From contig CP068257.2 in NCBI GenBank assembly GCA_009914755.4, forward strand, positions 14,688,001 to 14,752,000: a DNA stretch of 64,000 bases, written 5' to 3'. Below the pieces are notes generated by a model. That model ran no database searches. It was not told the DNA's origin and saw only the letters and a program-made list of their open reading frames with translations. Both the position numbers and the translations under genes were made by a program. This document shows positions 28,646 to 31,799 of the stretch, piece by piece (within the stretch, counting starts at the first letter, position 1; each line of letters starts with the position of its first letter). This stretch comes from the human T2T-CHM13v2.0 reference genome, Homo sapiens.

Positions 28646-28879
28646 CATAAATATATATAATTATTATGTATTGATAAAAAATTTTAAATAAAAAAATGGT
28701 ATTCACTATTTCTAGGTCTTAAAAAATTTTTTAAATGTTTAATTTTATAGAAAACCCAACAAAATATTTCTTCAAAAAATTTGAAATGACTATTTAATAT
28801 ATAGGTACAAAATATCTGATATATAATTCATGAGAACACCAGACACCAGTTTGACTTATAATTTGTCTTTCATATTCTT

Positions 28880-29193
28880 TTTTTTTTTTTTTTTTTTTTT
28901 TTTTTGAGATGGAGTCTCGCTCTGTCACCCAGGCCGGACTGCGGACTGCAGTGGCGCAATCTCGGCTCACTGCAAGCTCCGCTTCCTGGGTTCACGCCAT
29001 TCTCCTGCCTCAGCCTCCCGAGTAGCTGGGACTACAGGCGCCCGCCACCGCGCCCGGCTAATTTTTTGTATTTTTAGTAGAGACGGGGTTTCACCTTGTT
29101 AGCCAGGATGGTCTCGATCTCCTGACCTCATGATCCACCCGCCTCGGCCTCCCAAAGTGCTGGGATTACAGGCGTGAGCCACCGCGCCCGGCC
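28880..29193 (-). mobile_element. young Alu of the AluYb lineage (Yb8-like), antisense, long poly-T(~26), 10-12 bp TSD
   Basis: gagatggagtctcgctctgtcacccaggccggactgcggactgcagtggcgcaatctcggctcactgcaag contains the tandem ggactgc ggactgc, which is the reverse complement of the diagnostic 7-bp AluYb duplication (GCAGTCC GCAGTCC). The rest is a CpG-intact AluY consensus. TSD (t)tcatattctt at 28868-28879 and tcatattctt at 29194-29203. Confidence 0.85.
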
Positions 29194-31799
29194 TCATATT
29201 CTTAATTCTATAACAATTACAACAATTCATGGTATGTTGTTATTAAAGTGAGTTTTATAGAGGAAGGCTGTTACAATATCTCATTTTTAACCCATGTATT
29301 ATATATAGTTATCGTTTTAATAGTAACTGAAAATAGGAAAGTTTAGATACATAAGTAAAGATGTGCACACACACATGCATACATTTATAAACTGCCTTTT
29401 CTTAAGTGAGAATTTCACATTTTCAAAAAAATAATTGTGTATGTAAGAGTTTTGTTTTTACCTTACTGTCAAGAGAGTTCGATCATTATCATCTGGACAA
29501 TGGGCTAAAATGTAGGAGTTGTTCTGTCTTATAATATCAGAAAAATAAAGGACCTATTTTATTTCATAGATGAATTAAAACACAAAAATATATTAATATA
29601 GTAGCATAATTTTACCAGGGGCCTGTTACTTTCTGAATTGGAGTATCTAAAGGAAATTTGGGGTACTGTGTTCTATTTACAAATGACTAGCAAGACTGAT
29701 TGCGGGATGAATGACCCTCCTTTATTCATGTGCTCTGTATAAAGGAGAATTTTGTCATTAATAATAATGATTGTAATACTGTGTGTTGAATGTAAACCAT
29801 CACTACTTTACACATTAAAACCTATCCTAATTTAATTAATACAATTAGCCATCGCTGCATCTTCAACAAAAAATTATAAAATTCTTATCTGGATTGATTA
29901 AATTTAGTTGAGCCCTTAATCCTGATCATTCTGCTTGTTTTTGATAAATAATTTGAAAATAAATTCAAATTCATTCAAATTACACCTTGATTTCAAGTAG
30001 GAATAGTTTAATAGTGTTCCAAAAAAAGGAATGTTAAACTATTGAGGTATTCTTGACAACTCTTAGAGCTGATGATAAGAAGGTTCATAGATAGGAAGGC
30101 AGGAATGACTTATTATTAAGTCATCTGAGTAAATCTGTCATTGAAACCTAACATAGCATAGTACAACTTTGAGCAAATCAAGACTCTGCTGAATGCCCTC
30201 AGTTGTAAAATAATAGTGTTGTACTTTACAATCACTGACTGAGCCCCATTTTAGTTCTTTCATAATTATTTTTGGAAATAGTGATTTTCATTTTGTTAAA
30301 AAAACACTATTGGCATGTATAACAAATAATTTATAATATCTTCCACAAAAGCTCTCACATTAACCCAAGGAAGGCATTGAACATGCAAATAAAATATAAT
30401 TCAAAGTCTGTGTTAAATCTTGAGACTCAAAGCTCCTATGTCCCAAATGTTTGGGTCTGTGACACATGGATTGTCAAATTCAGAATCAGAGTAATGTTTT
30501 GTACAACTAGTAGCTCCAGCACTGTTCCCTGTGGTCTCTGGATGGAAGAGGCAGTCAAACAGATGGGTCCTAATAGCCTTCTAAGACGTGAATCAAGGAG
30601 CCTCATCAGCAAGGCTGATGGTTGCCTTTTACATTATCCTTGTGATGAACAAAACCCTTGGGCCTGACTGGCAGCTTCTTCTTTACCTCCCTTCACTTCA
30701 AGGCTTTCCAGGATACAATTCCCAAAAGCCCTGAATGTACTCTTCCGCAGAGGGAAGGCTGTAGAAGTCTTTGCAAGCTTCATACAGAGAAATACAAAAG
30801 GTGTGATGCCATTAACTGGTCCTTTCTAAAGCATTAGGAATTTAGTGAAACTCTCAAACACAAAACTGAAAAGCCATTTGAACAAATCTCATATACTTGT
30901 AGATAAGCTTTTTTTTATTTAAAGCATACAAATTCAAATCTTTCAAGCAGAAAATTCAGTCAAGTGAGATCCATTGGTGGTTTGAGTTCAAAGTCAGTGA
31001 GCAAATGGAAATCATTGCGGCATCTCTCTCATTTCCCTAGTGGACATTAGACCACTCAAAATGTGTCACATAATTTACAGCCCCTTGGTAGTAATTGAAT
31101 ATACACGTTGAGAGTGCACTGGCAGAACACTTAAGAAAGATTGAATGCAGGAGGACCAGCTTACGTTATTTTTGGCTCTACTCTGGTTTTTGCTTTTAAT
31201 GTTTTTTCTTGAGATTAATTTCAATTGGGTTGTTCCATCCTATTCAAACAAATGCTTTGAGAGAAGAGATGAACAGCAGCATCAAATAAATTGTGATATT
31301 TAGTTTCAGAGACATCAGGTGTTGTAATCAAATAAGACAGAAGGACAAAGTAAAATCTGTGATTTGCCATAAATGAATTTAAGCTGTAAGAATAGCAGAA
31401 TTGAGAGGTAGATTAGCAATATGACTTTTGAACTATTATCTAAATGTAGGGTGAGATTTTCAAGATTTATTTTAATATATAACATTTTTGCTAATATTTA
31501 GGAAAACAAAGAATTTTGTAGTTAAAAGTGTGAAACATTAAAATTATCTGTCTTTAAATATTAATTATTCTAAATCTCTCTTTTGTGTATCTGTTACTAG
31601 ACACTTTTAATTCTTAGACACATATTTTATGAAGAGTTATTCTTAAAATGGTATGCTTTGTTTGCCAGTCAACATGGAATCTCCCTAGGTATAACCTTTA
31701 ATATTTAAGAGAATACAGATCAAAATAGTAGAGATTTCAACTTGATTTTATAAAGACGTCCAAGTATTCTGAACTTATAATAGGAAAATGAGTCCTGAT

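What the first reader, a model, noticed from the sequence alone, without database searches (positions are those of the whole stretch)
28868..29203. AluYb-lineage (Yb8-like) insertion with near-pristine hallmarks; candidate young or polymorphic insertion
The insert carries the Yb-specific 7-bp tandem duplication (seen as ggactgcggactgc on this strand). It has a ~26-nt uninterrupted poly-T tail, intact CpGs and a perfect 10-12 bp TSD (tcatattctt). AluYb8/9 expanded mostly in the human lineage and many copies are dimorphic. It landed about 230 bp downstream of the head-to-head L1 junction.
Basis: partly seen in the sequence, partly recalled or inferred. Interest (0 to 1): 0.5.

Follow-up and report, generated by a model that had tools for sequence, protein, structure and literature searches.

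The report
Ordinary human AluYb8 retrotransposon copy
This is a full-length, well-preserved copy of AluYb8, a common human-lineage "jumping" repeat pasted in by the LINE-1 machinery; it is ordinary, and whether some people lack it could not be tested here.

Summary
Window 28870-29203 carries a full-length, minus-strand Alu: a 288-bp body (29193 to 28906), a pure 26-A tail (28880-28905) and a perfect 10-bp target-site duplication, TCATATTCTT.

I built a consensus from 16 other Yb copies fetched from public contigs. The element differs from it at three positions only (207 G>A, 267 C>T, 284 G>A). All three are CpG transitions, so 21 of 24 CpGs survive. There are no non-CpG changes and no indels.

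It has the 7-nt duplication and the published Yb8 18-mer. It lacks the marks of Yb9, Yb8a1, Yb8b1, Yb10, Yb11 and Yb7a3, so it is canonical Yb8. The nick site is TCTT/AA, the second commonest L1 endonuclease site. This fits classical target-primed reverse transcription.

"Young or polymorphic" is neither supported nor refuted. The divergence (1.04 %), tail and duplication are typical of both proven dimorphic Yb8 copies and fixed ones. The mutation-based age is 0.6-11 Myr. The base rate of dimorphism is about 20 %. I put dimorphism here at about 0.3. No tool reached primate or population data.

By the usual criteria it is a poor source element, because the first TTTT lies 67 nt beyond the tail. 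Interest is low.

The parts
29194..29203 (-). 5' target-site duplication (sense AAGAATATGA; + strand TCATATTCTT)
   Evidence: 10/10 identical to 28870-28879 (family D4). It directly abuts Alu position 1 (GGCC).
28906..29193 (-). AluYb8 body, full length (288 nt), dimeric 7SL-derived SINE
   Evidence: 98.98 % identity to the Yb8 consensus, against 93.2 % to AluY and 90.6 % to AluSx. 285/288 identical, with no gaps, to a consensus built from 16 independent Yb copies. Both monomers hit Rfam Metazoa_SRP on the minus strand at E about 4e-14, below the gathering score.
29171..29181 (-). Pol III A box (TGGCTCACGCC, Alu positions 13-23)
   Evidence: Identical to the consensus. The assignment of the box rests on established knowledge of Alu promoters.
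29110..29120 (-). Pol III B box (AGATCGAGACC, Alu positions 74-84)
   Evidence: Identical to the consensus. The assignment of the box rests on established knowledge.
28936..28949 (-). Yb-lineage 7-nt tandem duplication (sense GCAGTCC GCAGTCC), inside the Yb8 diagnostic 18-mer ACTGCAGTCCGCAGTCCG
   Evidence: Read directly. Described as Yb8-defining in PMC3831846 (duplication of AluY positions 246-252) and in PMC4494700 (the 18-mer).
28987..28987 (-). Private substitution, Yb8 position 207 G>A (CpG decay)
   Evidence: None of the 16 comparison copies shares it.
28927..28927 (-). Private substitution, Yb8 position 267 C>T (CpG decay)
   Evidence: None of the 16 comparison copies shares it.
28910..28910 (-). 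Private substitution, Yb8 position 284 G>A (CpG decay)
   Evidence: None of the 16 comparison copies shares it.
28880..28905 (-). Poly(A) tail, 26 uninterrupted A (poly-T on the + strand)
28870..28879 (-). 3' target-site duplication (sense AAGAATATGA)
   Evidence: family D4.
29200..29205 (+). Inferred L1 endonuclease first-strand nick site, 5'-TCTT/AA-3', on the strand opposite the Alu
   Evidence: Read from the sequence. The + strand 3'-OH at ...TCTT is continuous with the poly-T at the other copy of the duplication. TCTT/AA is reported as the second most frequent L1 EN hexamer (PMC4607524). That a nick occurred here is an inference.
28809..28812 (-). First TTTT (Pol III terminator) downstream of the element on the sense strand, 67 nt beyond the A tail
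   Evidence: The criterion of about 15 bp or less for efficient source elements is quoted in PMC4607524 from Comeaux et al. 2009.

Best explanation
This is a canonical, full-length AluYb8 SINE.

How it arose (inferred):
- An Alu Pol III transcript from a Yb8 source copy elsewhere in the genome was copied into this AT-rich, L1-rich site by the LINE-1 ORF2 protein, by target-primed reverse transcription.
- ORF2p nicked the + strand at 5'-TCTT/AA-3'.
- The freed T-rich 3' end annealed to the Alu poly(A) and primed cDNA synthesis.
- A second nick 10 bp away on the other strand produced the 10-bp target-site duplication.

When: the insertion happened on the human lineage, after the split from chimpanzee. 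Since then, or partly already in its source copy, it has picked up three CpG transitions and nothing else.

What it is now: most likely an inert passenger. Its left monomer, A and B boxes and tail are intact. However, a Pol III transcript would carry 67 nt of unique 3' sequence before the first TTTT, which is reported to reduce retrotransposition strongly.

Population status is undetermined. I estimate about 0.65-0.7 that it is fixed or nearly fixed and about 0.3 that it is still dimorphic. The confidence given below refers to identity and mechanism, not to fixation.
For: Identity:
- 285/288 matches, no indels, to a consensus built from 16 independent Yb copies found in public contigs. That consensus equals the Yb8 consensus I recalled from memory.
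- The Yb8 18-mer and the 7-nt duplication are present (PMC4494700, PMC3831846).
- Position 64 is T and position 144 is C, as in Yb8. Position 174 is C (not Yb9). Position 259 is G (not Yb8a1, Yb10 or Yb11). Position 260 is G (not Yb8b1). There is no T insertion at 200/201. Positions 243 and 268 are unchanged (not Yb7a3) (PMC3831846, PMC4607524).
- Both monomers hit the 7SL/SRP model on the minus strand.

Mechanism:
- The element is full length, with a pure 26-A tail and a perfect 10-bp duplication.
- The nick site TCTT/AA is the second commonest L1 EN site (PMC4607524).
- The local flanks are 26 % GC and L1-rich.

Human lineage:
- About 2,200 Yb8 copies in human against 9 in chimpanzee (PMC3298642).
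- 80 % of all Yb copies are human-specific (PMC3831846).
- The mutation-based age is 2.8-3.8 Myr at maximum likelihood, with a 95 % interval of 0.6-11 Myr.

Poor source element: the first TTTT is 67 nt after the tail, against the criterion of about 15 bp (PMC4607524). None of the 16 other Yb copies shares its three private changes.
Against: - No orthologous ape sequence and no human population data could be reached, so human specificity and fixation rest on family-wide base rates and not on this locus.
- The species of the window is itself inferred from the Yb8 copy.
- The age estimate rests on three events. It also assumes that the source copy was identical to the consensus, and secondary sources are common (PMC4607524).
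- The pure tail is commoner in proven dimorphic insertions (93 % pure; PMC4607524) than in my small sample of Yb copies (5-6 of 15 pure). This pulls towards dimorphism.
Confidence: 0.9

Rival explanations
1. This is the same AluYb8 TPRT insertion, but it is still dimorphic (present or absent) in present-day humans. That is the first reader's 'candidate polymorphic insertion'.
For: - The base rate is 499 of 2,433 full-length Yb, or 20.5 % (PMC3831846).
- Proven dimorphic Alus average 0.8 % divergence (SD 0.6-0.7). Their tails average 29 A, 93 % of the tails are pure, and their duplications are 7-22 bp (PMC4607524). This element fits all of these: 1.04 %, 26 pure A, 10 bp.
- Only 5-6 of 15 other Yb copies have pure tails, so tail purity raises the odds somewhat.
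Against: - Nothing is locus-specific.
- Three private CpG changes give a maximum-likelihood age of about 3-4 Myr if the source copy was consensus.
- Six 9-mers from the GC-richest parts of the two flanks, the likeliest primer sites, are absent from the supplement of a study that genotyped 104 dimorphic reference Yb8 loci. The rest of the flanks was not tiled.
- No paper in the held library prints its flanks, junctions or empty site. All of this is weak negative evidence.
Confidence: 0.3
2. This is an older insertion that predates the human-chimpanzee split and is shared with other apes. It would be one of the rare non-human Yb8 copies.
For: The Yb lineage is older than the human-chimpanzee split. 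20 % of Yb copies are not human-specific (PMC3831846). The upper age bound is 8-11 Myr.
Against: - Only 9 Yb8 copies are reported in chimpanzee, against about 2,200 in human (PMC3298642).
- The element has zero non-CpG changes, a pure tail and a perfect duplication.
Confidence: 0.02
3. A pre-existing older Alu at this site was overwritten by gene conversion from a Yb8 copy. On this reading the Yb8 features do not date the insertion.
For: None comes from this sequence. Gene conversion between young Alus is described in the literature (my own knowledge; not checked here).
Against: - All Yb8 positions are present along the whole 288 nt, with no mosaic of older-subfamily bases.
- The homopolymeric 26-A tail and the undecayed duplication are not expected for an old insertion. 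The other window Alus have short or interrupted tails and keep 0-21 CpGs.
Confidence: 0.01
4. The copy is a live secondary source ('stealth driver') that still produces new Yb8 insertions.
For: - It is full length, and positions 1-206 are identical to the consensus, including the A and B boxes.
- Its pure tail is longer than 20 A. These are three of the four 'traditional hallmarks' listed in PMC4607524.
Against: - The fourth hallmark fails: the first TTTT is 67 nt after the tail, against about 15 bp (PMC4607524).
- None of the 16 Yb copies carries 207A, 267T or 284A. This sample is small.
Confidence: 0.03

Closest known systems
AluYb8 subfamily consensus (SINE/Alu, human-lineage expansion)
   Same: The element has all the diagnostic positions, the 7-nt duplication and the 18-mer ACTGCAGTCCGCAGTCCG. 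It has the dimeric 7SL-derived architecture, an A tail, a target-site duplication and an L1 EN nick site.
   Different: It has three private CpG transitions, at positions 207, 267 and 284.
AluYb7a3 (Konkel et al. 2015, PMC4607524)
   Same: It shares G>A at position 207.
   Different: Yb7a3 lacks the position-64 change and also has 243 C>T and 268 G>A. This copy has T at 64, C at 243 and G at 268. Its change in that CpG is at 267, not 268. Position 207 is a CpG, so a recurrent hit is the simpler reading.
AluYb9, Yb8a1, Yb8b1, Yb10 and Yb11 (PMC3831846, PMC4607524)
   Same: The Yb8 backbone is the same.
   Different: It lacks 174 C>G (Yb9, Yb10, Yb11), 259 G>A (Yb8a1, Yb10, Yb11), 260 G>A (Yb8b1) and the T insertion at 200/201 (Yb11).
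Known dimorphic AluYb8 insertions with reported associations: WNK1 intron 10 (PMC3298642) and TMEM106B 3'UTR (PMC11247663)
   Same: The subfamily and insertion mechanism are the same, and they too are human-lineage insertions.
   Different: Those loci have demonstrated presence/absence alleles and lie in identified genes. For this copy neither the gene context nor dimorphism is known. I read only the title and abstract of the TMEM106B paper.

Membership tests
Alu SINE (7SL-derived, dimeric) | Two 7SL-related monomers joined by an A-rich linker, about 280-290 nt, with internal Pol III A and B boxes in the left monomer | tested here: met
   Both halves hit Rfam Metazoa_SRP on the minus strand (58.5 and 57.9 bits, E about 4e-14, below the gathering score of 70, as expected for a SINE). 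The element aligns full length to Alu consensuses. The A box (29171-29181) and B box (29110-29120) are identical to the consensus.
AluYb8 | Tandem duplication of 7 nt at AluY positions 246-252 | tested here: met
   GCAGTCC x2 on the sense strand, window 28936-28949. The definition is from PMC3831846.
AluYb8 | [quoted passage not shown] | tested here: met
   The exact match is present on the sense strand. The sequence is from PMC4494700.
AluYb8 | The remaining Yb8 diagnostic substitutions relative to AluY (for example T at 64 and C at 144) | tested here: met
   The element is identical to the independent 16-copy Yb consensus at every position except 207, 267 and 284. Positions 64 and 144 are named as diagnostic in PMC4607524. 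The full list of eight was not available in a held paper, so the test is against the consensus rebuilt here.
AluYb9 / Yb10 / Yb11 | C>G at position 174 (plus 259 G>A for Yb10 and Yb11, and a T insertion at 200/201 for Yb11) | tested here: not met
   Position 174 is C, position 259 is G, and there is no insertion at 200/201 (PMC3831846).
AluYb8a1 / Yb8b1 / Yb7a3 | 259 G>A (Yb8a1); 260 G>A (Yb8b1); ancestral base at 64 plus 207 G>A, 243 C>T and 268 G>A (Yb7a3) | tested here: not met
   Position 259 is G, 260 is G, 64 is T, 243 is C and 268 is G. Only 207 G>A is shared with Yb7a3 (PMC4607524).
L1-mediated TPRT insertion | 3' poly(A), flanking target-site duplication of about 7-22 bp, and a T-rich/AA endonuclease site at the 3' junction | tested here: met
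   A 26-A tail, a 10/10 duplication and a TCTT/AA site at 29200-29205. The ranges and site frequencies are from PMC4607524.
Human-specific Alu insertion | Empty orthologous site (a single copy of the duplication) in chimpanzee and other apes | not testable with these tools
   No primate genomes are available here. A flank 31-mer is absent from metagenome contigs, genome contigs and viral contigs. Only the family-wide prior is available: 9 chimpanzee copies against about 2,200 human Yb8 copies (PMC3298642).
Dimorphic (polymorphic) Alu insertion | Both filled and empty alleles observed among humans | tested here: inconclusive
   - Six flank 9-mers, taken from the likeliest primer regions only, are absent from the supplement of PMC4494700 (104 dimorphic reference Yb8 loci).
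- Flank, junction and empty-site strings are absent from the held full-text library.
- Four ORFs on or beside the element (28079-28312, 28384-28566, 28794-28970, 30377-30667) are not on record in the assembly collection.
- No ORF longer than 21 aa spans the reconstructed empty site, so protein tools cannot find an empty allele.
Alu source ('master' or 'stealth driver') element | Full length, intact left monomer, pure A tail over 20 bp, and TTTT within about 15 bp of the tail (criteria as listed in PMC4607524) | tested here: not met
   The first three criteria are met. The TTTT is 67 nt beyond the tail. There are no copies with the same private changes among the 16 Yb copies.

The most novel reading that the evidence does not exclude
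The insertion is still dimorphic in living humans. It would then be usable as a presence/absence population marker. Conceivably it could have a cis effect on a host transcript, as reported for the Yb8 insertions in WNK1 and TMEM106B. On the + strand it presents a 26-28-nt polypyrimidine tract followed by antisense Alu sequence, the configuration from which Alu exons arise. The sequence evidence neither supports nor excludes dimorphism. No gene was identified in the window, so any cis effect is pure speculation.
Probability: 0.3. Interest if true: 0.2.

Novelty: already known. Interest (0 to 1): 0.08.

Why it matters
It matters little. AluYb8 is one of the best-studied human repeats, with about 2,200 copies, and this copy shows nothing beyond the textbook hallmarks of an L1-mediated insertion.

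Its practical value would be as one more presence/absence marker, if it proves dimorphic. It also dates and labels the window: a canonical Yb8 is strong evidence that the sequence is human.

The useful result here is negative. 'Near-pristine' sequence does not by itself distinguish a dimorphic Yb8 from a fixed one.

Tried and rejected
1. I looked for filled or empty alleles in public DNA.
   - A unique 31-nt left-flank pattern gave no match in metagenome contigs, genome contigs or viral contigs.
   - A 34-nt right-flank pattern gave none in viral contigs.
   - The second metagenome and genome scans were then used to fetch independent Yb copies instead.

2. I tried exact look-ups of four ORFs on or beside the element: 28384-28566, 28794-28970 (which spans the 3' junction), 30377-30667 and 28079-28312. 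None is on record.

3. I reconstructed the empty site. No ORF longer than 21 aa spans it, so protein searches cannot detect an empty allele. I therefore did not spend a homologous-protein search.

4. I searched the literature.
   - Six 9-mers from the GC-richest (likeliest primer) parts of the flanks are not in the supplement of PMC4494700.
   - The TSD strings are not in the supplements of PMC3831846.
   - No supplements are held for PMC4607524.
   - 14-mers from the flanks, and junction and empty-site strings, are not in the full-text library.
   - A printed Dfam Alu alignment (PMC5643497 supplement) was not recoverable as text.
   - Carter 2004, Roy-Engel 2002, Comeaux 2009 and Bennett 2008 are not held.

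5. I first reasoned that three private mutations argue strongly against dimorphism, using a Poisson age. I rejected this after reading that proven dimorphic Yb8 copies average 0.8 % divergence and that only 1 of 76 is identical to the consensus (PMC4607524).

6. I tried to identify the locus or a gene. There are no Rfam hits at gathering score in the whole window. None of the ORFs of 95 aa or more looked like an exon by eye; I scanned only six ORFs against Pfam (four of them 95 aa or longer), and those gave only endogenous-retrovirus pol (RNase H / RT-RNase H) domain hits, with none on the L1-like ORFs.

7. Membership of Yb9, Yb8a1, Yb8b1, Yb10, Yb11 or Yb7a3 was tested and rejected.
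Full report
**What is there**

Reading window 28500-29500 on both strands shows a full-length Alu on the minus strand. In sense orientation it runs as follows:
- the repeat AAGAATATGA (window 29203-29194);
- a 288-nt body starting GGCCGGGCGCGG (29193-28906);
- 26 uninterrupted A (28905-28880);
- AAGAATATGA again (28879-28870).

The repeat finder reports the two 10-mers as a perfect direct repeat with start-to-start spacing of 324 bp (family D4). For the local base composition, a 10/10 match at the two exact junctions has a chance of about 3e-6 to 8e-6. The repeat cannot be extended, so the target-site duplication is 10 bp, not 11-12 bp. The feature starts at 28870, not 28868.

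**Which Alu**

To avoid relying on memory, I scanned public contigs for the Yb duplication region. This fetched 18 contigs carrying Yb copies. They look like human DNA inside metagenome assemblies, and one lies in a Campylobacter concisus assembly. The majority consensus of 16 usable copies is identical to the Yb8 consensus I had recalled. Two of the copies match it perfectly.

The window element differs from that consensus at three positions only:
- 207 G>A (window 28987);
- 267 C>T (window 28927);
- 284 G>A (window 28910).

Each is a transition inside a CpG, and none is shared with any of the 16 copies. There are no non-CpG substitutions and no indels. 21 of 24 CpGs are retained.

The published definitions are met. 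These are the 7-nt tandem duplication at AluY positions 246-252 (PMC3831846) and the Yb8-specific 18-mer ACTGCAGTCCGCAGTCCG (PMC4494700). The marks of the daughter subfamilies are absent (PMC3831846, PMC4607524):
- position 174 is C, so it is not Yb9, Yb10 or Yb11;
- position 259 is G, so it is not Yb8a1;
- position 260 is G, so it is not Yb8b1;
- there is no T insertion at 200/201, so it is not Yb11;
- position 64 is T, 243 is C and 268 is G, so it is not Yb7a3, although 207 G>A is one of that subfamily's three marks.

Rfam gives the expected picture. Both monomers match the metazoan SRP RNA model on the minus strand (E about 4e-14), below the gathering score. There are also sub-threshold matches to Alu-derived miRNA families.

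**How it got there**

The anatomy is that of L1-mediated target-primed reverse transcription. On the + strand the right-hand copy of the duplication ends ...TCTT and is followed by AATT. At the left-hand copy the same ...TCTT runs straight into the poly-T. The inferred first-strand nick is therefore 5'-TCTT/AA-3' at 29200-29205.

That hexamer is reported as the second most frequent L1 endonuclease site. It was seen in about a fifth of 322 sequenced young Alu insertions (PMC4607524). The 10-bp duplication lies within the reported 7-22 bp range.

The surroundings fit the known preference of young Alus. The flanks are 26 % GC and the window is 36 % GC, and the neighbourhood is L1-rich. The nicking and priming steps are inferred from these hallmarks and were not observed.

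**How young, and is it polymorphic?**

I used 0.15 % per site per Myr for non-CpG sites (as used in PMC3831846) and a 6- to 10-fold higher rate at CpG sites (PMC4607524). Three CpG hits and zero non-CpG hits then give a maximum-likelihood age of 2.8-3.8 Myr, with a 95 % interval of about 0.6-11 Myr.

At first I took this as evidence against dimorphism. The literature shows that the argument fails. Sequenced, proven dimorphic Alus are on average 0.8 % diverged from their subfamily consensus (SD 0.6-0.7). Only 1 of 76 Yb8 was identical to the consensus, because secondary source copies already carry changes (PMC4607524). This element is 1.04 % diverged, which is typical of that set. It also sits at the median of my 11 full-length comparison copies, which have 0-13 substitutions.

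The tail and duplication likewise sit inside the dimorphic set's ranges. Those tails average about 29 A (range 13-62) and 93 % are pure.

The one feature that leans towards youth is tail purity. Of 15 other Yb copies with a readable tail, 9 have interrupted, microsatellite-like tails and 5-6 are pure. That sample is small, and short-read assembly biases it against long homopolymers.

The base rate is 499 of 2,433 full-length Yb copies polymorphic, or 20.5 % (PMC3831846). Adjusting modestly for the pure tail, I put dimorphism at about 0.3.

Human-lineage origin is much firmer on family-wide grounds. There are about 2,200 Yb8 copies in human against 9 in chimpanzee (PMC3298642), and 80 % of all Yb copies are human-specific (PMC3831846). 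It was still not tested at this locus.

**Source potential**

Positions 1-206 are identical to the consensus, including the A and B boxes. The element is full length and its tail exceeds 20 pure A. However, the first TTTT on the sense strand lies 67 nt beyond the tail (window 28812-28809). A distance of about 15 bp or more is reported to reduce retrotransposition strongly (Comeaux et al. 2009, as quoted in PMC4607524). No comparison copy shares its private changes. It is most likely a dead-end copy.

**What could not be done**

No primate genome or human variant catalogue is reachable.
- Unique flank patterns found nothing in the metagenome, prokaryote-genome or viral contig collections.
- Four ORFs on or beside the element are not on record in the assembly collection.
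- No ORF longer than 21 aa spans the reconstructed empty site, so protein-based tools cannot find an empty allele.
- Six flank 9-mers (from the likeliest primer regions), flank 14-mers, and junction and empty-site strings found nothing in a supplement listing 104 dimorphic reference Yb8 loci or in the full-text library.

An L1 ORF2-derived segment lies at 27701-28274 in plus orientation. An L1 3' end follows at 28396-28633, also in plus orientation. An inverted L1 3' end lies at 26200-26441.

A head-to-head arrangement therefore exists. The facing 5' ends lie around the (TA)n array at 27.1-27.6 kb. What sits about 170-250 bp to the left of the Alu is the A-rich 3' end of the plus-strand L1.

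**Verdict**

The subfamily assignment is right and is sharpened to canonical Yb8. The 'young or polymorphic' suggestion remains an untested possibility at roughly the family base rate. This is a known kind of element behaving exactly as expected, and interest is low.

Noticed in passing
window 26200-26441 (-), 27701-28274 (+), 28396-28633 (+): Two old L1 remnants lie in opposite orientation. The 3' ends are about 69 % identical to each other over 249 nt. The plus-strand copy seems to lack several hundred bp between its ORF2 piece and its 3' end. A second short 3'-end-like piece follows at 28632-28697. The arrangement could be two independent insertions or an old inverted duplication.
   Followed up: partly
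window 27102-27607: There is an impure (TA)n/(TATATAT)n array of about 500 bp between the two L1 remnants. The 26-28 kb bin is only 24 % GC.
   Followed up: no
window 2952-3167: A 108-bp unit is present twice in tandem (97 % identical). It starts exactly at the 5' end of a minus-strand AluY-like copy (2667-2953).
   Followed up: no
window 20696-20982 (-): This is an AluY copy with 21 CpGs retained, a nearly consensus right monomer, a tail of about 19 A and a clear 14-bp duplication (AAGATGGAAATTAC). It nevertheless has 16 mismatches to AluY, concentrated in the left monomer. The uneven decay might reflect a Y sub-subfamily or partial gene conversion.
   Followed up: partly
window 59465-59668: There is a 32-bp x 6.3 minisatellite (90 % matches). 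An ORF reading through it gives a repetitive peptide.
   Followed up: no
window 62043-63759 (-): ORFs here hit RNase_H (E 3e-16) and RT_RNaseH_2 (E 4e-9), so this is an endogenous-retrovirus pol remnant. GC content and GC skew rise sharply over 60-64 kb. An L1 ORF2 C-terminal-like ORF lies at 60853-61506 (-).
   Followed up: partly
window 29009-29060 (-) and 28926-28992 (+): Inside the Yb8 there are sub-threshold Rfam matches to the miRNA families mir-1268 (69 bits against a gathering score of 83) and mir-3135 (45 against 80). Both fall entirely on Alu sequence, so I read them as Alu-related matches. They illustrate how young Alus can mimic these models.
   Followed up: no
L018 (CABPVN010000112.1, 709-bp contig of a Campylobacter concisus assembly), 216-503; also L001-L017: A consensus-perfect AluYb8 with primate-like flanks sits in a bacterial genome assembly contig. 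Seventeen metagenome contigs carry Yb copies too. This is almost certainly human DNA contamination in public assemblies.
   Followed up: partly
window 31956-32022 and about 44.9-45.2 kb: There are (TA)n(CA)n-type compound microsatellite stretches. These produce the long 'YVCVYIYI...' ORFs on both strands.
   Followed up: no
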